This document shows positions 21,066-64,000 of a stretch of 64,000 bases of DNA, piece by piece. The notes beneath the pieces are model-generated. The model made no database searches and was not told the origin of the DNA. It worked only from the letters and a program-made list of their open reading frames with translations. Positions within the stretch are counted from its first letter, which is position 1; each line of letters starts with the position of its first letter. The stretch comes from Arcobacteraceae bacterium (GTDB taxonomy: Bacteria > Campylobacterota > Campylobacteria > Campylobacterales > Arcobacteraceae): assembly GCA_963677755.1 (NCBI GenBank), contig OY782506.1:958137-1022136 (forward strand). Reading direction: 5' to 3'. The position numbers and the translations under genes are program-made.

Positions 21066-21117
21066 TTTTACCCTTTCAGTTTAATTTAATCTTTATAGTG
21101 TAAAATTTCTCTGTTAG

Positions 21118-21217
21118 TGGGGGGTATGTGATCCTGGTGGACACCACAGGTTTCAACCCTGATTGGAGGTATTTGTGTAAACGCCTCGGTAGGTTCGATT
21201 CCTACACCTTCTCACCA
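21118..21217 (+). tRNA. selC: tRNA-Sec (anticodon UCA)
   Basis: Canonical T arm GTAGG-TTCGATT-CCTAC (21189-21205). 7-nt loop TT-TCA-AC with TCA at 21153-21155. 6-bp D stem with one bulge and a 4-nt loop (TGGT). Long extra arm (21166-21187) and encoded CCA (21215-21217). The acceptor pairs the G-run 21119-21125 with 21206-21212 using several G-U pairs, so the exact 5' end is uncertain. Confidence 0.7.
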
Positions 21218-59374: not shown

Positions 59375-59410
59375 AAAAAAAGGGTGCTACTTTGGTAGTA
59401 CCCTTTTTTA
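59375..59410 (+). terminator. rho-independent terminator of oorDABC
   Basis: AAAAAAGGGTGCTAC-tttg-GTAGTACCCTTTTTT. Confidence 0.7.
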
Positions 59411-59431: not shown

Positions 59432-59590
59432 TTAAACATCACTAGTTGTAATTACCAGTAAATTATTTTCTTTTAAATATATTATTCTATAGTTTCCTTC
59501 TCTTTTTCTAAACTTACCTTTATGTTTTCCTTTAAGTGATTTATCAAGTGCTACAACTTTAGTTAAATTATTTAAGTTGTTTTGGTTTTT
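59432..59590 (-). pseudogene. 5'-truncated RelE/ParE-type toxin remnant at the distal end of the array
   Basis: Minus-strand frame with no start codon reads ...LDKSLKGKHKGKFRKREGNYRIIYLKENNLLVITTSDV*. The GxYRIIY block is typical of RelE/ParE toxins. The frame is open right up to attC A, and no attC follows it. Confidence 0.4.
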
Positions 59591-59591
59591 T

Positions 59592-59662
59592 AGGTAACGT
59601 TTGACTTGAGAAATAGTTTTGCCCGCTAGGGTAAACTATTTCTCTCCAAGGTTTTGTTAAAC
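59592..59662 (-). repeat. attC site A (belongs to the VOC cassette)
   Basis: Minus strand: R'' GTTTAAC ... GAGAAATAGTT/AACTATTTCTC stems ... R' GTTACCT. About 70 nt and a close relative of attC B and C. Confidence 0.8.
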
Positions 59663-59680
59663 TTGCCATTACTGAGAAAT

Positions 59681-60121
59681 TCAATTCCAAGATTGAATTT
59701 CTATAATATTTCCTTCTATATCTCGTAAATATGTAAATTTTAATATTCCTACACCTTCAACTTCATTTTCAATAACTTCACCTAATTTTGTTGCGCCATG
59801 TTCTAAAGCTTTTGATAGTATTGCATCTACATCATCCACTTCAAAAGCGATATGTGTAAAGCCAATTTGGTTTGCCATCATAGGAATTGTATCAACAAAT
59901 TTTTCATAACTAAATATTTCTAATGTTGGAGGATTATCATATCCAGGTAATGATAAATGAACTCCAGTCTGTCTAGCATTTTTAATCCCGATAGCTTTAT
60001 CTAACCAATCACCTTTTAGATCTCTTTCAGGTGGTTTTATTTTACATTCAAAAACTTTAATATAAAAATCTGCTAATATTTTCCAATCTCTTGCAGCTAT
60101 GTTTGTATGTGCAAATCGCAT
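59681..60121 (-). CDS. VOC (glyoxalase/bleomycin-resistance/dioxygenase) family protein, cassette 5
   Basis: 146 aa. HTNIAARD...FTHIAFEVDD...RDIEGNIIEI pattern of paired beta-alpha-beta-beta-beta modules. Confidence 0.75.
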   Translation of the reverse strand: MRFAHTNIAARDWKILADFYIKVFECKIKPPERDLKGDWLDKAIGIKNARQTGVHLSLPGYDNPPTLEIFSYEKFVDTIPMMANQIGFTHIAFEVDDVDAILSKALEHGATKLGEVIENEVEGVGILKFTYLRDIEGNIIEIQSWN

Positions 60122-60141
60122 ATGTATGTTTCCTTTTTATA

Positions 60142-60211
60142 GTTTAACGTTTGAGTTGAGAAATAAAATTAGCCGCAGGGTAATTTATTTCTCTCCAATG
60201 ATTTGTTAAAC
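60142..60211 (-). repeat. attC site B
   Basis: Minus strand R'' GTTTAAC (abuts the stop codon of the 100-aa ORF) ... R' GTTAAAC. Confidence 0.85.
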
Positions 60212-60212
60212 A

Positions 60213-60515
60213 TTAATTGATACCCCAATTTTTTTTATCCTGAGGCGTTAATGTTGAATAAACATCTTGTAAAACACTATTTAATTCTGAACTCACATTA
60301 CCAAAACTACGGTAATTCGTAAGAATATACCTTCTTACTGTATTTGGATATAACCCTGAATCATGAGCATCAGATATAATACCTTTTGCATCATGATAGC
60401 TAGTATTTTTTCTAACTTCTTTTAACCTTTGTTCAAAGTGACCAAAAGTCCAATCATCAGTTCTTTGTTCAAATTCATCTAAAAGTTTTTCTTTATATTG
60501 TGCTAGTTTTGCCAT
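60213..60515 (-). CDS. hypothetical protein, cassette 4 (100 aa)
   Basis: The single ORF filling the cassette between attC C and attC B. Confidence 0.65.
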   Translation of the reverse strand: MAKLAQYKEKLLDEFEQRTDDWTFGHFEQRLKEVRKNTSYHDAKGIISDAHDSGLYPNTVRRYILTNYRSFGNVSSELNSVLQDVYSTLTPQDKKNWGIN

Positions 60516-60534
60516 TGTTACATTTTCCTTTATT

Positions 60535-60604
60535 GTTTAACGGTTGAGTTGAGAAATAAGTTTGCCCGTAGGGTAACTTATTTCTCTCCAAAGTTTTGTT
60601 AGAT
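60535..60604 (-). repeat. attC site C
   Basis: Minus strand ATCTAAC-aaaactttgg-AGAGAAATAAGTTACCC-tac-GGGCAAACTTATTTCTC-aactcaacc-GTTAAAC, with bulged bases in the stem. Confidence 0.85.
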
Positions 60605-60613
60605 ACTTTAAAA

Positions 60614-60865
60614 CTATTCGGTAGCTTCATGTGATAAAACTTCAATCTCTCCAGAAATCTTTTGAATAAGTTCCTTTAAAGCTTCATCACCATTTACATG
60701 TGATGCGACATTTTGTCCTTCCCTGAGAAGTACATTTACAGCTTGTATCCTCATCAATGTTTCTTTTAATTCAGATGTTGTAATCTTTAGAACACCTTCT
60801 GGTGAATTCACTTTTATAACGCCTCTTACGCCAACGCCATAATCTTCATAATTTATGTTACTCAT
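60614..60865 (-). CDS. hypothetical protein, cassette 3 (83 aa)
   Basis: The single ORF filling the cassette between attC D and attC C. Confidence 0.65.
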   Translation of the reverse strand: MSNINYEDYGVGVRGVIKVNSPEGVLKITTSELKETLMRIQAVNVLLREGQNVASHVNGDEALKELIQKISGEIEVLSHEATE

Positions 60866-60899
60866 TTTTATGCTCCTTATACATTATAAAACATTCTTT

Positions 60900-60967
60900 A
60901 TCTAACGACTGAATAGAGCGAATAAGTCGCCGCTAGGCTACTTATTCGTTCCTATGTTTTGTTAGGT
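60900..60967 (-). repeat. attC site D
   Basis: Minus strand R'' ACCTAAC ... CGAATAAGT/ACTTATTCG stems ... R' GTTAGAT. The 474-aa ORF runs 26 nt into it. Confidence 0.8.
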
Positions 60968-62366
60968 TTTTAATGTCAATTATAGTTCCTTCTTCTAAAG
61001 ACAAACATCTTAGTTTACCCATTTTCTGATACAATTTAAACTGTTCAACTGACTTTATTTCAATATTTTTTTCAAGTGAAAAAGTTATTAAAAATCTTTC
61101 TTTCTCTTTAACTTCATACTCTTGAAATTTTTCATTAGTAAATCCTATTGTAAATTCAATATTATCATCTAACTCGTTAAATAAAACTTCAAAGCTTTTT
61201 TCATCATTAACTAACTCAATAGCTTCTATAACTTCTGCAAATATAAAAACTAAATCTGGGTTAAAGTTTTCAACAATTTGATAAATTGAATTTTTAAAAA
61301 ATTGTTCACCAGCGAATAAGTTTAATCTTGAAACAATTGGTAAATTATTTCCTTCAAAAGTTTTAATACCTGTATCAGCATTGAAGTTTATATTAACTAT
61401 ATTTGTATCTTTAAATAAAGTCTTATCTATCGGATTTTTAGCAAAAGGATTATGAAATATAAATAATCCATCTGATAAAAACTCTGGATTATTTGAAGAT
61501 ACAATTTGAGGTTTAAAATGAGGTGGTTCTGTATCATGTCTCATACACAAGACTGTATTTAAATTTAAATTAGATTTACTTTGTGAAATTGATAATGATG
61601 TTAATTTTCCTAAAGTCACGGTAGAACTAAAAATTACAGCTGATATATGTTTCATTTTTTCATTTAAAAATAATCCAATAGGTATATCAGATGTACTATT
61701 TGGTTTTCTAATATTTTCTTTCTTGGTATATTTATCATTTAAATTATCATAATATAATCCATAAAGTAATGCAAACATGGCATAATAAAAGTTGTTACCA
61801 TAATTAATTTGTTCATAGCCACTTAAAGCTATTAAATATGGAGCAGTTATATCATAGTCTTCATCTTCTGAATAACCTTTGTGATATTTTCCTTTTTTTG
61901 AATATCCCGTATATTTTTCACTTTTTGATAAAATTGCATTTGAATACCTTACAATTGATTCTTTTAAATTTTCATCAAAGTTTTCTTGCATATGTACGGG
62001 TTCTATCATAGATATAATATCGTCTAAAGTTCTTTGTTCTTCTTGTGAGCCATCTTGCTTTATGTTTGCGACAACTGCTTCCACATAAATTTTTTGTGGT
62101 TTATTTATAATAAAGTCAGGTCTGTTTTTTGTAAAATCTATTTCAAATCCAGCTTCTTTAAATACGGCAAACAAATAAAATTCCCAAAATGATGAATGAA
62201 ATGTTGTTTGAAATTCTTTAACAATTTTATTATCTCTATCTTCAAACCCATCAATCCAGTCTTTTAAAATATCATGTTCTCCAGTTAAGAATAAATTATT
62301 TTTAATAGTTTCATATTTAGGATGTAATTTTTCTTTTTCTGTAGTTATTGAAAATAAATCTATCAT
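60942..62366 (-). CDS. hypothetical 474-aa protein, cassette 2 (possible N-terminal PD-(D/E)xK-like nuclease fold)
   Basis: The single long ORF filling a 1489-bp cassette. N-terminal segment FWEFYLFAVFKEAGFEIDFTKNRPDFIINKPQKIYVEAVVANIK has the helix / PD / hydrophobic-E pattern of restriction-endonuclease-like folds. That reading is weak and made by eye only. Confidence 0.7.
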   Translation of the reverse strand: MIDLFSITTEKEKLHPKYETIKNNLFLTGEHDILKDWIDGFEDRDNKIVKEFQTTFHSSFWEFYLFAVFKEAGFEIDFTKNRPDFIINKPQKIYVEAVVANIKQDGSQEEQRTLDDIISMIEPVHMQENFDENLKESIVRYSNAILSKSEKYTGYSKKGKYHKGYSEDEDYDITAPYLIALSGYEQINYGNNFYYAMFALLYGLYYDNLNDKYTKKENIRKPNSTSDIPIGLFLNEKMKHISAVIFSSTVTLGKLTSLSISQSKSNLNLNTVLCMRHDTEPPHFKPQIVSSNNPEFLSDGLFIFHNPFAKNPIDKTLFKDTNIVNINFNADTGIKTFEGNNLPIVSRLNLFAGEQFFKNSIYQIVENFNPDLVFIFAEVIEAIELVNDEKSFEVLFNELDDNIEFTIGFTNEKFQEYEVKEKERFLITFSLEKNIEIKSVEQFKLYQKMGKLRCLSLEEGTIIDIKNLTKHRNE

Positions 62367-62388
62367 TTTTATGCCTTTATGTTTGTGA

Positions 62389-62519
62389 ACCTAACGCCTA
62401 AAGCAAAAAACAAGGGGATATTTTACTTGGATGTTTGCTTTGTCTTTTTGGTTGCTTTACAAAATAAAACTTTAAATTATCGCAAGTATACCCTTGTTTT
62501 TTTCGGTGTATTGTTATCA
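62389..62519 (-). repeat. attC site E (long, divergent; belongs to the TA cassette)
   Basis: 131 nt. Minus strand R'' TGATAAC ... AAAAAACAAGGG/CCCTTGTTTTTT stems with a large central loop ... R' GTTAGGT. Confidence 0.7.
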
Positions 62520-62523
62520 TATC

Positions 62524-62850
62524 TTAATATTCAAATATCTCCGTAAGCATTTTTGATATTTCTTTTGATTTATTTTTTTCTACTGTACCAATTTTTTTAA
62601 CTACTCTAGTTTTATCAACTGCTCTGATTTGGTCTAATAATACTAAACCATTTTTATCTTCAAATTCTATTTTTGGTCTAAAAATAAAATTAAACCCTTT
62701 GCTTGTCATTGGAGCAATAATAATTGTTTTTAAAACATTCATTTCATTTGGTGATATTATAATACAAGGTCTAGTTTTTTGAATTTCTGAACCAACAGTT
62801 GGATTTAATTTTACTAAAACTATATCAAATCTATTTATTTCATCTACCAT
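62524..62850 (-). CDS. mazF: PemK/MazF-family toxin, cassette 1
   Basis: 108 aa. FDIVLVKLNPTVGSEIQKTRPCIIISP motif. 7-nt overlap with the antitoxin gene. Confidence 0.85.
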   Translation of the reverse strand: MVDEINRFDIVLVKLNPTVGSEIQKTRPCIIISPNEMNVLKTIIIAPMTSKGFNFIFRPKIEFEDKNGLVLLDQIRAVDKTRVVKKIGTVEKNKSKEISKMLTEIFEY

Positions 62851-63104
62851 TGATAATCTTCTAAATCATTATCATTTAATAACTCATCAATTATAGCTTC
62901 GTCTTCAATATTTTTATTTTGTAATAAAATATTTTCAATGTTATCTTTCCAATTTTCTCTTCTTGAAGTTAAAATTGGTTTTAACAATAATCCATTTTCA
63001 ACAACTTCTAAATCAATTTGAACATTTTCAAGATGTGCTTGTGCAATTAATGGCTTTGGTATTCTTATACCTTGTGAATTTCCTATTCTTGTTAACATTG
63101 TCAT
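62844..63104 (-). CDS. mazE: AbrB/MazE/SpoVT-family antitoxin, cassette 1
   Basis: 86 aa. IGNSQGIRIPKPLI swapped-hairpin motif and an acidic C-terminus. Confidence 0.8.
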   Translation of the reverse strand: MTMLTRIGNSQGIRIPKPLIAQAHLENVQIDLEVVENGLLLKPILTSRRENWKDNIENILLQNKNIEDEAIIDELLNDNDLEDYQW

Positions 63105-63136
63105 TTAATACTCCAATATAATTCATTTATATAGTA

Positions 63137-63165
63137 ATTATATTGTAATAACATATAATTGTCAA
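63137..63165 (-). promoter_or_regulatory. consensus sigma70-type promoter inside cassette 1
   Basis: Minus strand TTGACA (63165-63160), 17-nt spacer, TATAAT (63142-63137), about 33 nt upstream of the mazE ATG, which has a GGAG RBS. Confidence 0.65.
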
Positions 63166-63187
63166 GACTTTTAAAATTTATTTCTTA

Positions 63188-63194
63188 TGATAAC
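63188..63194 (-). other. probable attI crossover core (G|TTATCA)
   Basis: Minus-strand GTTATCA is the exact complement of R'' (TGATAAC) of the first cassette's attC E. It lies between the first cassette ORF and intI. Confidence 0.5.
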
Positions 63195-63485
63195 TCTTTA
63201 TTGAACATACATTATATATAAAACAGCCTGAAAATCAACAAATAACATACATAAAAAATGTCGTATATCAAAATAACGACAAACACCTTAAATAAGGTGT
63301 TCTTGCATATTTAACTATAAAAAATATTGCAATATGTCATATTTTTTAAATATATTTTAAGTTTACGATATAGTTTTCATGTATGTTTATTATCGATATT
63401 TCGATGATAATAGTACATTATGTATGTATATTATGACAATATCGTAATAAACCTGCATTTTGTTAAATTGATTTGGAGGTGTGTT

Positions 63486-64000
63486 ATGGGTAAAAAATTA
63501 TTAGAAATTATGGCTGATAAAATTAGATTTAAACACTATAGTATTAGTACAGAAAAAACTTATGTGCATTGGGCTAAGCGATATATACTTTTTCACAATA
63601 AACGACATCCAAAAGATATGGGAAAAATTGAGATAGAACAGTTCTTAACTCATCTGGCCACTAAGTTAAATGTATCTCCAACCACTCAAAATCAAGCGTT
63701 CAATGCAATATTATTTTTGTATGAGCAAGTTTTAAACATATCGTTAAAAGATCAGAATATTCAAGCTTTAAGAGCACAAGAGAGAAAACATATTCCAGTA
63801 GTGCTTACAATAGATGAAGTAAAAAGTATTATATTAAATATGTCAGGTATTTACCAACTGATGGTTAAGCTTATGTATGGTTGTGGTTTAAGGATGAAAG
63901 AAGTACAAAATATTCGTATAAAAGACATTGACTTTGGATTTGATAAAATCTATATTTGGGATAGTAAATCTTTAAAAGACAGAACTTTACCACTTCCTTT
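63486..64000 (+). CDS. intI: integron integrase IntI, N-terminal 171 codons (continues beyond the window)
   Basis: GGAGG RBS then ATG 63486, with the frame open to the window end. IRFKHYSISTEKTYVHWAKRYILFHNKRHPKDMG..VSPTTQNQAFNAILFLYEQVL...PVVLTIDEV...LMYGCGLRMKEVQNIRIKDIDF is collinear with IntI1 ([30 protein letters not shown]...STHRQALAALLFFYGKVL...[22 protein letters not shown]). Confidence 0.85.
   Translation, partial: MGKKLLEIMADKIRFKHYSISTEKTYVHWAKRYILFHNKRHPKDMGKIEIEQFLTHLATKLNVSPTTQNQAFNAILFLYEQVLNISLKDQNIQALRAQERKHIPVVLTIDEVKSIILNMSGIYQLMVKLMYGCGLRMKEVQNIRIKDIDFGFDKIYIWDSKSLKDRTLPLP

What the first reader, a model, noticed from the sequence alone, without database searches (positions are those of the whole stretch)
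59432..64000. Complete chromosomal integron in a Campylobacterota-like genome, wedged against core TCA genes
An IntI-type recombinase gene starts at 63486 and is transcribed away from a minus-strand array of five ORF-plus-attC units. Each attC is an imperfect palindrome bounded on the minus strand by RYYYAAC and GTTRRRY. The strongest evidence is the insertion footprint. The TTRRRY that opens each cassette is the exact complement of R'' in that cassette's own attC. The pairs are GTTAGGT/ACCTAAC (cassette 2), GTTAGAT/ATCTAAC (cassette 3), GTTAAAC/GTTTAAC (cassettes 4 and 5), and GTTATCA at 63188-63194 versus TGATAAC for cassette 1, which also locates attI. The inferred cassettes span 63193-62395, 62394-60906, 60905-60541, 60540-60148 and 60147-59598. 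The array ends at a truncated cassette abutting the oorC terminator, so it is embedded in housekeeping DNA rather than in a transposon. As far as I recall, integrons are poorly documented in this phylum. Four of the five cassettes carry a product of unknown function or only a generic family assignment.
Basis: partly seen in the sequence, partly recalled or inferred. Interest (0 to 1): 0.85.

Follow-up and report, generated by a model that had tools for sequence, protein, structure and literature searches.

The report
Chromosomal integron in an Arcobacter-like genome
This is a real but ordinary chromosomal integron, a gene-capture platform holding five mobile gene cassettes, in an Arcobacter-like bacterium; the same integron lineage is common in that phylum's genomes, and the window ends before showing whether its integrase gene is intact.

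Summary
An IntI-type integrase gene starts at 63486 (+) and runs off the window at residue 171. A truncated sixth cassette abuts the oorC terminator.

Independent support:
- A covariance model built only from attC sites of two other genomes finds four of the five sites at the predicted coordinates (E 3e-16 to 8.5e-8). Nothing else in the 64 kb scores better than E=0.33.
- Homology of the intI-attI platform to about 20 related integrons stops at 63189-63194.
- The mazEF cassette recurs, 98% identical, in other arrays and starts at the same G|TTATCA.
- The R'/R'' footprint rule holds in 48 of 71 neighbouring attC pairs across relatives, against 5% for random pairing.

Corrections:
- "Complete" is unproven. 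The IntI-specific insertion lies beyond 64000. Most relatives have an intact 320-aa IntI, but about a fifth are truncated.
- The lineage is not rare. At least 403 species-level Campylobacterota genomes encode relatives, and IntegronFinder 2.0 tables already list Arcobacter and Sulfurimonas elements.
- Cassette 2 is a PD-T7-5-like anti-phage protein.

Verdict: a new member of a known kind, of modest interest.

The parts
63486..64000 (+). 5' part of intI (residues 1-171 of an expected ~320). It contains the SAM-like N-terminal domain and the first catalytic Arg (..GCGLRMKE..). The gene runs off the window.
   Evidence: PF13495 1.6e-29 and PF00589 6.4e-10. TIGR02249 194.8 bits over model 2-166/315, against XerC/D at 42-45 bits. 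94% identical to L009, whose full ORF scores 406 bits.
63195..63485 (.). Conserved integron platform between intI and the crossover point: the attI region plus promoters.
   Evidence: Alignment A3 of 8 integrons is conserved up to ..AATGTATGTTCAATAAA[T/G]AGTTA and unrelated after it. blastn homology to ~20 loci ends at 63170-63206, mostly at 63189-63192.
63188..63194 (-). attI core site GTTATCA, with the crossover between G 63194 and T 63193.
   Evidence: It is the reverse complement of R'' TGATAAC of cassette 1. The 98%-identical mazEF cassette in L004 begins at the same G|TTATCA behind a different attC.
63211..63238 (-). Candidate cassette promoter Pc (TTGATT-16-TATAAT), pointing into the array.
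   Evidence: 10/12 consensus match. The -10 block TATATATAATGTAT is invariant in A3. Function is inferred.
63204..63212 (-). ATGTATGTT repeat 1, next to the crossover; a candidate IntI-binding repeat of attI.
   Evidence: 3 of the 4 copies in the 64-kb window lie in this 300-bp platform. Conserved in A3. The binding role is inferred.
63244..63252 (-). ATGTATGTT repeat 2, a direct repeat 40 nt from repeat 1.
63379..63387 (+). ATGTATGTT repeat 3, an inverted copy near the intI start.
62395..63193 (-). Cassette 1: mazE-like antitoxin (62844-63104), mazF/pemK-like toxin (62524-62850), its own promoter TTGACA-17-TATAAT (63165-63137), and attC1.
   Evidence: PF04014 1.1e-5 and PF02452 1.1e-28. 12/12 promoter match. 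98% identical copies in L003, L004 and L005, and 76% in the Sulfurimonas locus L055.
62389..62519 (-). attC1: 131 nt, long variable loop, R'' TGATAAC, R' GTTAGGT.
   Evidence: Fold z-score -2.5, with a 12-bp AAAAAACAAGGG/CCCTTGTTTTTT stem. It belongs to the long-attC subfamily ..ACAAGGGTATACTTGCGAT.. seen in L001 and L002. The short-attC model R1 does not find it.
60906..62394 (-). Cassette 2: 474-aa PD-T7-5-like anti-phage protein (ORF 60942-62366).
   Evidence: PADLOC PDLC04110, E 3.2e-79, residues 2-348. phrog_8571, 1.2e-67. A 33%-identical homologue sits in the L011 array. No Pfam or PDB hit.
60900..60967 (-). attC2 (ACCTAAC ... GTTAGAT).
   Evidence: R1 42.8 bits, E 8.5e-8. Fold z-score -4.5.
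60541..60905 (-). Cassette 3: 83-aa ORF (60614-60865), function unknown.
   Evidence: No hit in Pfam, NCBIfam, PADLOC, PHROGs or PDB.
60535..60604 (-). attC3 (ATCTAAC ... GTTAAAC).
   Evidence: R1 76.8 bits, E 3.1e-16. Fold z-score -5.0.
60148..60540 (-). Cassette 4: 100-aa ORF (60213-60515), function unknown.
   Evidence: No hit in any library.
60142..60211 (-). attC4 (GTTTAAC ... GTTAAAC).
   Evidence: R1 68.5 bits, E 3.4e-14. Fold z-score -4.0.
59598..60147 (-). Cassette 5: 146-aa VOC/glyoxalase-family protein (ORF 59681-60121).
   Evidence: PF18029 and PF00903. An 88%-identical protein sits in the array of Sulfurimonas MAG L065.
59592..59662 (-). attC5 (GTTTAAC ... GTTACCT).
   Evidence: R1 65.1 bits, E 2.5e-13. 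Fold z-score -4.2.
59441..59597 (-). Truncated sixth cassette. It starts with TTACCT, holds only the last ~43 codons of a RelE-like toxin (stop at 59432-59434), and has no attC.
   Evidence: phrog_1213 RelE-like toxin, E 0.0011, weak. No R1 hit. Backbone homology to L006-L008 ends at 59440.
59376..59409 (+). oorC terminator hairpin, marking the chromosomal backbone edge of the array.
   Evidence: Inverted repeat I22, 15-nt arms, followed by a T-run. It is conserved in L006-L008.

Best explanation
The region is a small sedentary chromosomal integron of a lineage that is widespread in Campylobacterota. It lies in an Arcobacter-like chromosome, directly downstream of oorDABC.

Proposed mechanism:
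1. intI (63486 onward) encodes an integron-type tyrosine recombinase.
2. IntI binds attI (candidate ATGTATGTT repeats) and the folded single-stranded attC hairpins.
3. It exchanges strands at G|TT, so circular cassettes are inserted at 63193/63194 and excised between attCs.
4. A conserved Pc-like promoter at 63238-63211 reads into the array.
5. The first cassette is a mazEF toxin-antitoxin pair with its own consensus promoter. It probably stabilises the array.
6. Downstream cassettes carry a PD-T7-5-like anti-phage gene, two unknown small ORFs and a VOC-family enzyme. A decayed RelE-type cassette ends the array.

Shown here: the sequence anatomy, the family membership of the N-terminal half of IntI, attC family membership, the exact crossover positions, and the presence of the same cassettes in other arrays.

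Inferred: that intI is intact beyond 64000 (about 0.75-0.8), that it is currently active, the function of Pc, and the binding role of the repeats.
For: - IntI family. TIGR02249 gives 194.8 bits on the half-protein, against XerC/D at 42-45 bits. Relatives 91-94% identical score 404-406 bits (cut-off 265) in one stretch. One of them (L009, 94% identical) also aligns essentially end to end with VchIntIA (2a3v), including the IntI-specific insertion.
- attC detection. An independent covariance model finds 4 of 5 sites at exact coordinates and nothing else in 64 kb.
- Relatives. 104 attC hits in 85 loci; every hit in a locus fetched by its intI lies upstream of and divergent from that intI.
- Stem conservation. 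95.9% of cells pair, against 24-42% in slid controls; covariation is 0.242 against 0.054 for shuffles.
- Crossover position. Platform homology ends at the predicted crossover.
- Cassette mobility. mazEF, VOC and PD-T7-5-like cassettes recur in other arrays.
- Footprint rule. 48/71 pairs, against 5.5% for random pairing.
- Left flank. The backbone is 95-97% identical to L006-L008 up to 59440, and those contigs carry a different cassette at the same site.
- Not a mobile class. No plasmid IntI exceeds 52% identity.
Against: - The C-terminal 150 residues of IntI, including the defining insertion and most catalytic residues, are outside the window.
- 8 of 37 relatives, plus L001 and L002, have truncated intI.
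- The closest same-backbone contigs (L006-L008) have no intI at all.
- The array has only 5 attCs, below the >10 threshold used to call an integron sedentary.
- Canonical extrahelical bases could not be assigned unambiguously from the minimum-energy folds.
- The right-hand flank is unseen.
Confidence: 0.9

Rival explanations
1. Decaying integron. The array and attI are real, but intI is truncated or frameshifted beyond 64000. Cassettes would then be frozen, or moved only by an integrase supplied in trans.
For: - Truncated intI is common in this lineage: 196-aa stumps in L001 and L002 (and P0003), and 137-279 aa in L020, L032, L035, L065, L079 and L085.
- L006-L008, the contigs with the same backbone, keep one attC and no intI.
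- The array is short and ends in a decayed cassette.
Against: - The three closest platforms by nucleotide identity (L010 86%, L011 85%, L009 85%) all have intact 320-aa ORFs.
- The window ORF is open through residue 171, past the points where L032, L065 and L085 break.
- 29 of 37 relatives are intact.
Confidence: 0.2
2. Mobile integron. The platform would be carried on a transposon, ICE or genomic island that happened to land next to oorC.
For: - The right flank is not visible.
- In other Arcobacteraceae the same integron lineage sits at a different site, next to guaA, so the platform has moved during evolution.
Against: - The array abuts the oorC terminator directly, with no IS, Tn or inverted-repeat remnant.
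- Related contigs carry a cassette array at the same site.
- L089 has intI directly followed by ubiD, the gene that also lies beyond the array remnant in L006.
- IntI is at most 52% identical to any plasmid-borne IntI and 46% to IntI3.
Confidence: 0.04
3. Not an integron. The repeats would be REP/MITE-like palindromes or terminators between unrelated genes, next to a XerC/D-type recombinase.
For: The genome is AT-rich, so hairpins and promoter-like motifs are frequent (38 promoter-like sites against 31 expected). Two attC stems are also picked up as terminator-like.
Against: - XerC/D models score 42-45 bits against cut-offs of about 330, while IntI scores 194.8 bits on half a protein.
- Repeat ends coincide with homology breakpoints of mobile cassettes.
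- The footprint rule holds.
- The repeats occur only upstream of intI and on one strand.
Confidence: 0.01

Closest known systems
Sedentary chromosomal integrons of Vibrio (VchIntIA/IntI4 with VCR-type attC arrays)
   Same: - The IntI relatives are 320 aa; the closest (L009) aligns essentially end to end with VchIntIA (2a3v, 267.8 bits), including the IntI-specific insertion.
- intI and the array are divergent.
- The attC sites are similar within the array (86-89% among three).
- The array holds toxin-antitoxin cassettes with their own promoters and anti-phage cassettes, as reported for SCIs in bioRxiv 10.1101/2024.07.02.601686.
- Both lie in a chromosomal housekeeping context.
   Different: - Only 5 cassettes plus a remnant, against tens to hundreds.
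- Two attC subfamilies occur in one array (about 70 nt and 131 nt).
- The host phylum is Campylobacterota.
- The chromosomal site differs between genera: oorC/ubiD here, guaA elsewhere.
Integrons, In0 and CALIN elements catalogued by IntegronFinder in Arcobacter, Sulfurimonas and Sulfurovum
   Same: Same phylum and the same kind of element. Listed examples are Ca. Sulfurimonas marisnigri (complete integron, 3 attC), A. nitrofigilis (CALIN, 8 attC), and A. anaerophilus and A. cryaerophilus (CALINs), plus S. autotrophica (In0 + CALIN) and Sulfurovum NBC37-1 (CALINs).
   Different: - Those entries appear only in tables, without description.
- The Arcobacter entries shown in the excerpts retrieved (the stored supplementary files are cut) were CALINs, with no integrase called.
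- Here the integrase start, attI and array are contiguous.
Mobile integron classes 1-5 (IntI1-IntI5 on plasmids and transposons)
   Same: Same recombinase family and the same attI/attC logic. From memory, the L'-R' motif AACTCAA(A/C)C-GTTA resembles attC of aadA7.
   Different: - At most 46% identity to IntI3 and at most 52% to any plasmid IntI over the visible 171 residues.
- No resistance cassettes.
- Chromosomal housekeeping flank.

Membership tests
Integron (intI + attI + attC cassette array) | Tyrosine recombinase of the IntI subfamily (N-terminal half) | tested here: met
   TIGR02249 gives 194.8 bits over model 2-166/315. XerC/D models give 42-45 bits.
Integron (intI + attI + attC cassette array) | IntI-specific additional domain near patch III, and the full catalytic set (R-K-H-R-H-Y) | not testable with these tools
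   These features lie beyond residue 171, outside the window, and the source contig was not retrievable. They are met in relatives 91-94% identical: 404-406 bits against a cut-off of 265, and the closest (L009) aligns essentially end to end with 2a3v. They are not met in about a fifth of relatives, which are truncated.
Integron (intI + attI + attC cassette array) | attC sites: imperfect palindromes with inverse core sites R'' (..AAC) and R' (GTT..), detectable by a structure-aware model | tested here: met
   R1, built from other genomes, finds 4 of 5 sites at E 3e-16 to 8.5e-8 with no false hit below E=0.33. attC1 is matched only by similarity to long attCs of L001/L002 and by its fold. IntegronFinder's own model was not available.
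Integron (intI + attI + attC cassette array) | Extrahelical bases on the folded bottom strand that set strand choice | tested here: inconclusive
   Minimum-energy folds show bulges and asymmetric loops next to the main stem. Alternative pairings place the extra bases on either arm.
Integron (intI + attI + attC cassette array) | attI next to intI, with the crossover at G|TT | tested here: met
   Conservation across 8 platforms ends at ..AGTTA. blastn breakpoints fall at 63189-63194. The mazEF cassette in L004 starts at the same position.
Integron (intI + attI + attC cassette array) | The cassette start is the complement of the cassette's own R'', the signature of circular-intermediate insertion | tested here: met
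   5/5 in the window. 48/71 in relatives, against 5.5% for random pairing and 7.5% within the same site.
Integron (intI + attI + attC cassette array) | Cassette promoter Pc in or next to intI/attI | tested here: inconclusive
   TTGATT-16-TATAAT at 63238-63211, conserved in relatives. This is a consensus match only, with no expression data.
Sedentary chromosomal integron (SCI) | Chromosomal, non-mobile context shared by related strains | tested here: met
   The left flank is oorDABC. L006-L008 have an array at the same junction. The right flank is unseen.
Sedentary chromosomal integron (SCI) | Large array (>10 attC in IntegronFinder 2.0; previously >19) | tested here: not met
   There are 5 attC sites. 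The threshold is taken from PMC9024848.
Mobile integron classes 1-5 | High IntI identity to IntI1-5 and carriage on a transposon or plasmid | tested here: not met
   Best plasmid hit is 52%; IntI3 is 45.7%.
XerC/XerD chromosome dimer resolvases | Score above the equivalog cut-offs | tested here: not met
   42.5 and 44.5 bits, against cut-offs of 335 and 330.
PD-T7-5 anti-phage system (cassette 2) | Match to the PADLOC profile across its length | tested here: met
   E 3.2e-79, profile positions 1-337 of 346. The defence activity of this homologue, and the role of its extra 125 C-terminal residues, were not tested.

The most novel reading that the evidence does not exclude
The mazEF cassette exists with two unrelated attC sites. 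Both versions share the same R'' (TGATAAC-AA) and the same cassette start, and the homology breaks immediately after R''. This is what a strand exchange at the R'' box would produce: a top-strand or 'wrong-side' IntI reaction, or an R''-R'' fusion of two neighbouring cassettes. Genes and attC bodies would then assort independently in this integron lineage. More broadly, this would be a largely undescribed, phylum-wide family of chromosomal integrons with a conserved attI platform that has relocated between chromosomal sites.
Probability: 0.2. Interest if true: 0.55.

Novelty: new member of a known kind. Interest (0 to 1): 0.33.

Why it matters
This adds a cleanly delimited example of a chromosomal integron outside Gamma- and Betaproteobacteria, which the surveys report as holding nearly all integrons (93% of complete integrons are gammaproteobacterial, PMC9024848). 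The related loci show that Arcobacteraceae, Sulfurimonas, Sulfurovum and Sulfurospirillum share one IntI/attI/attC lineage. That lineage has rapidly changing arrays, frequent integrase decay, toxin-antitoxin cassettes and anti-phage cassettes. It could therefore serve as a second natural system, besides Vibrio, for studying sedentary integrons as defence and accessory-gene banks. The element itself works as textbook integrons do, so it does not change the concept.

Tried and rejected
- **Rfam:** the gathering search over the whole window gave only tRNA-Sec. No curated family covers the attC sites.
- **Source contig beyond 64000:** exact-protein look-ups of MazE, MazF and OorC gave either no record or only other contigs. 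The >1 Mb record was not returned. P0118/L089 looked like a possible same-strain contig but is only 83.5% identical in DNA.
- **RNAalifold on the 80-sequence model-fitted alignment:** it predicted no structure, because two attC subfamilies are misaligned internally. I used pair counts on the model structure instead.
- **Extrahelical bases:** the assignment is ambiguous.
- **Cassette proteins 2, 3 and 4 against PDB sequences:** nothing significant.
- **Base composition:** the array is only slightly more AT-rich (0.23-0.31 GC) than the backbone (0.29-0.37), which is not diagnostic.
- **Literature searches for Arcobacter, Epsilonproteobacteria or Campylobacterota chromosomal integrons:** they returned wastewater class-1 studies and two IntegronFinder tables, with no dedicated description.
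- **XerC/D-like recombinase and REP-like repeat readings:** rejected on scores and on the homology breakpoints.

Full report
**1. What is in the sequence**

An ORF preceded by GGAGG starts at 63486 (+) and is still open at 63998, giving 171 residues.

On the minus strand there are five ORF-plus-palindrome units:
- mazE and mazF, 86 and 108 aa
- a 474-aa ORF
- an 83-aa ORF
- a 100-aa ORF
- a 146-aa VOC-family ORF

The palindromes lie at 62519-62389, 60967-60900, 60604-60535, 60211-60142 and 59662-59592. Each begins with ..AAC and ends with GTTA... The last three are 86-89% identical to each other.

In all five cassettes, the first six bases plus the preceding G are the exact reverse complement of that cassette's own 5' box. 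For cassette 1 the preceding G belongs to GTTATCA at 63194-63188, which therefore marks attI. Three boxes (TGATAAC, GTTATCA, GTTACCT) do not fit the strict RYYYAAC/GTTRRRY consensus. Only AAC and GTTA are invariant.

**2. The recombinase**

- The 171-residue fragment has the SAM-like N-terminal domain and the start of the catalytic domain.
- It scores 194.8 bits on the integron-integrase model TIGR02249 over model positions 2-166 of 315. XerC and XerD models give 42-45 bits.
- The gene leaves the window before the IntI-specific insertion and before most catalytic residues. "Complete" therefore cannot be shown here.
- A scan of one genome per GTDB species found 403 stretches encoding relatives. 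All 80 listed loci come from Campylobacterota records (Arcobacteraceae, Sulfurimonas, Sulfurovum, Sulfurospirillum and others), apart from a few vaguely or differently labelled MAG contigs. The best is Arcobacter iocasae at 94% identity.
- In 29 of 37 loci examined, the ORF is 318-324 aa and ends ..GHKSxETTMIYTHV..SPLDF. Eight are truncated. Two further Mb-scale contigs (L001, L002) carry a 196-aa stump followed by guaA.
- Full-length relatives score 404-406 bits on TIGR02249 (cut-off 265) in a single stretch. The closest, L009, aligns essentially end to end with VchIntIA (PDB 2a3v), including the insertion, whereas XerA and XerD align only outside it.
- No plasmid-borne IntI is more than 52% identical; IntI3 is 45.7%.

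**3. The attC sites**

- I built a covariance model (R1) from eight attC sites read out of the arrays of L001 and L002 only. Searched with filters off over the whole window, it finds 60604-60535, 60211-60142, 59662-59592 and 60967-60900 on the minus strand, at E 3.1e-16 to 8.5e-8. The next best hit has E=0.33.
- The 131-nt attC1 is not found by this short model. It shares the ..ACAAGGGTATACTTGCGAT.. arm with long attCs in L001 and L002, and it folds with a 12-bp stem.
- Single-strand DNA folds of all five sites have z-scores of -2.2 to -5.0.
- On 85 related loci, R1 gives 104 hits. Every hit in a locus fetched by its intI lies upstream of that intI on the opposite strand. The two hits in L003 and L004, which were fetched by mazF and hold no intI, follow mazF.
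- On 80 aligned sites, 95.9% of cells in the two helices pair, against 24-42% when partners are slid. The covariation score is 0.242 against 0.054 for shuffles. That alignment is fitted to the model, so this figure is supportive only.
- I could not assign canonical extrahelical bases. Alternative pairings put the extra bases on either arm.

**4. Crossover points and cassette mobility**

- blastn of the window against all fetched loci shows that homology of the intI-attI platform to about 20 integrons stops at 63170-63206, mostly at 63189-63192.
- An alignment of eight platforms is conserved up to ..AATGTATGTTCAATAAA[T/G]AGTTA and unrelated afterwards.
- The mazEF cassette (63194-62511) is 98% identical to three metagenome contigs. 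In L004 it follows another attC and begins at the same G|TTATCA.
- The VOC cassette recurs at 85% DNA and 88% protein identity in a Sulfurimonas array. mazEF recurs at 76% DNA in another Sulfurimonas array. A 33%-identical PD-T7-5-like gene sits in the L011 array.
- Across relatives, the rule "R' of one attC is the complement of R'' of the next" holds in 48 of 71 consecutive detected pairs, and in 43 of 55 pairs less than 1.5 kb apart. Random pairing gives 5.5% and the same site gives 7.5%.

Together these results show cassette insertion and excision at G|TT. That is the integron mechanism.

**5. Context**

- The backbone left of 59440 (sucCD, fumarase, mdh, oorDABC) is 95-97% identical to contigs L006-L008, which encode an identical OorC.
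- In those contigs the oorC terminator is followed by a different remnant (a mazF tail), one attC and a DUF4145 cassette. trx and ubiD come next, and there is no intI. This looks like a decayed, CALIN-like version at the same site.
- In L089 an intact intI is directly followed by a ubiD that is 80% identical to that of L006. The integron therefore probably sits between oorC and ubiD.
- In other Arcobacteraceae, the same lineage lies next to guaA.
- The window's terminal remnant (59441-59597) starts like a cassette (TTACCT). It keeps only the last ~43 codons of a RelE-like toxin (weak PHROG hit) and has no attC.

**6. Platform features (inferred functions)**

- TTGATT-16-TATAAT at 63238-63211 points into the array and is conserved in relatives. 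It is a candidate Pc.
- Three of the four ATGTATGTT copies in the 64-kb window lie in the 300-bp platform: two direct repeats next to the crossover and one inverted copy near intI. They are candidate IntI-binding sites.
- A perfect TTGACA-17-TATAAT lies inside cassette 1, upstream of mazE. Toxin-antitoxin cassettes in Vibrio integrons are known to carry their own promoters.

**7. Cassette content**

| Cassette | Content | Evidence |
|---|---|---|
| 1 | MazE/MazF toxin-antitoxin pair | |
| 2 | PD-T7-5-like: PADLOC E 3.2e-79 over residues 2-348, plus a 125-residue C-terminal extension | |
| 3 | Unknown, 83 aa | |
| 4 | Unknown, 100 aa | |
| 5 | VOC/glyoxalase family | |

A defence cassette fits the report that sedentary integrons are banks of anti-phage systems (bioRxiv 10.1101/2024.07.02.601686).

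**8. Comparison with what is known, and novelty**

The element is an integron in every testable respect. It works like the Vibrio sedentary integrons, but it is small: 5 attCs, below the >10 threshold of PMC9024848.

The main texts of the two IntegronFinder surveys do not discuss this phylum. The supplementary tables of IntegronFinder 2.0 already list CALINs in several Arcobacter species and a complete integron in Ca. Sulfurimonas marisnigri. Another paper lists In0 and CALIN elements in Sulfurimonas autotrophica and Sulfurovum. Source annotations also name homologues 'integron integrase'.

This is therefore a new member of a known kind. The lineage is under-described rather than unknown.

**9. 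An unexplained detail worth recording**

The window's mazEF cassette and its 98%-identical copies in L003 and L004 share the cassette start and the R'' box (TGATAAC-AA). Their attC bodies are unrelated: 131 nt here and 57 nt there. Homology breaks immediately after R''. Normal IntI exchange occurs at R', not R''. Possible causes are an R''-side exchange, an R''-R'' fusion of adjacent cassettes, or microhomology-mediated deletion. I could not discriminate between them.

**10. Verdict**

| Claim | Assessment |
|---|---|
| Observation | Confirmed |
| Integron interpretation | Supported, confidence about 0.9 |
| "Complete" | Likely (about 0.75-0.8) but not shown |
| "Poorly documented phylum" | True of the prose literature, not of the genome data |
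| Interest | Modest |

Noticed in passing
window 62389-62519 versus L003:613-669 and L004:4060-4116: The same mazEF genes (98% identical), the same cassette start and the same R'' box occur with two unrelated attC bodies (131 nt here, 57 nt there). Homology breaks right after TGATAACAA. This suggests an attC swap or a cassette fusion at R''.
   Followed up: partly
window 60942-62366 (-): The 474-aa protein of cassette 2 matches the PD-T7-5 anti-phage profile (E 3e-79) over residues 2-348 and has an unmatched ~125-residue C-terminal extension. A 33%-identical homologue sits in the array of L011.
   Followed up: partly
window 63137-63165 (-): A perfect sigma-70 consensus promoter (TTGACA-17-TATAAT) lies inside cassette 1, upstream of mazE. 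It is the only 12/12 match in the 4.3-kb region scanned.
   Followed up: no
L006:10565-12540, also L007 and L008: Contigs with an identical OorC and a 95-97% identical backbone carry, at the same junction, only a mazF-tail remnant, one attC and a DUF4145 cassette. trx and ubiD follow, with no intI. This is a decayed, CALIN-like version of the same integron site.
   Followed up: partly
L001:9700-10600 and L002:9700-10600: Two Mb-scale contigs share an almost identical 196-aa intI stump next to guaA, yet their first cassettes differ, and each obeys the footprint rule at attI. Either the cassettes changed after or despite the truncation (an integrase supplied in trans?), or the truncation spread by recombination.
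   Followed up: no
L032:6129-6662: This intI has an internal deletion of about 230 bp and the same ..EVVNKGDIIF* tail as the L001/L002 stumps, which suggests a shared decay history.
   Followed up: no
window 21117-21213 (+): A tRNA-Sec gene (Rfam RF01852, 48.8 bits) is present, so the host uses selenocysteine.
   Followed up: no
window 63204-63212, 63244-63252, 63379-63387: Three of the four ATGTATGTT copies in the 64-kb window cluster in the attI platform and are conserved in relatives. They are candidate IntI-binding repeats.
   Followed up: partly
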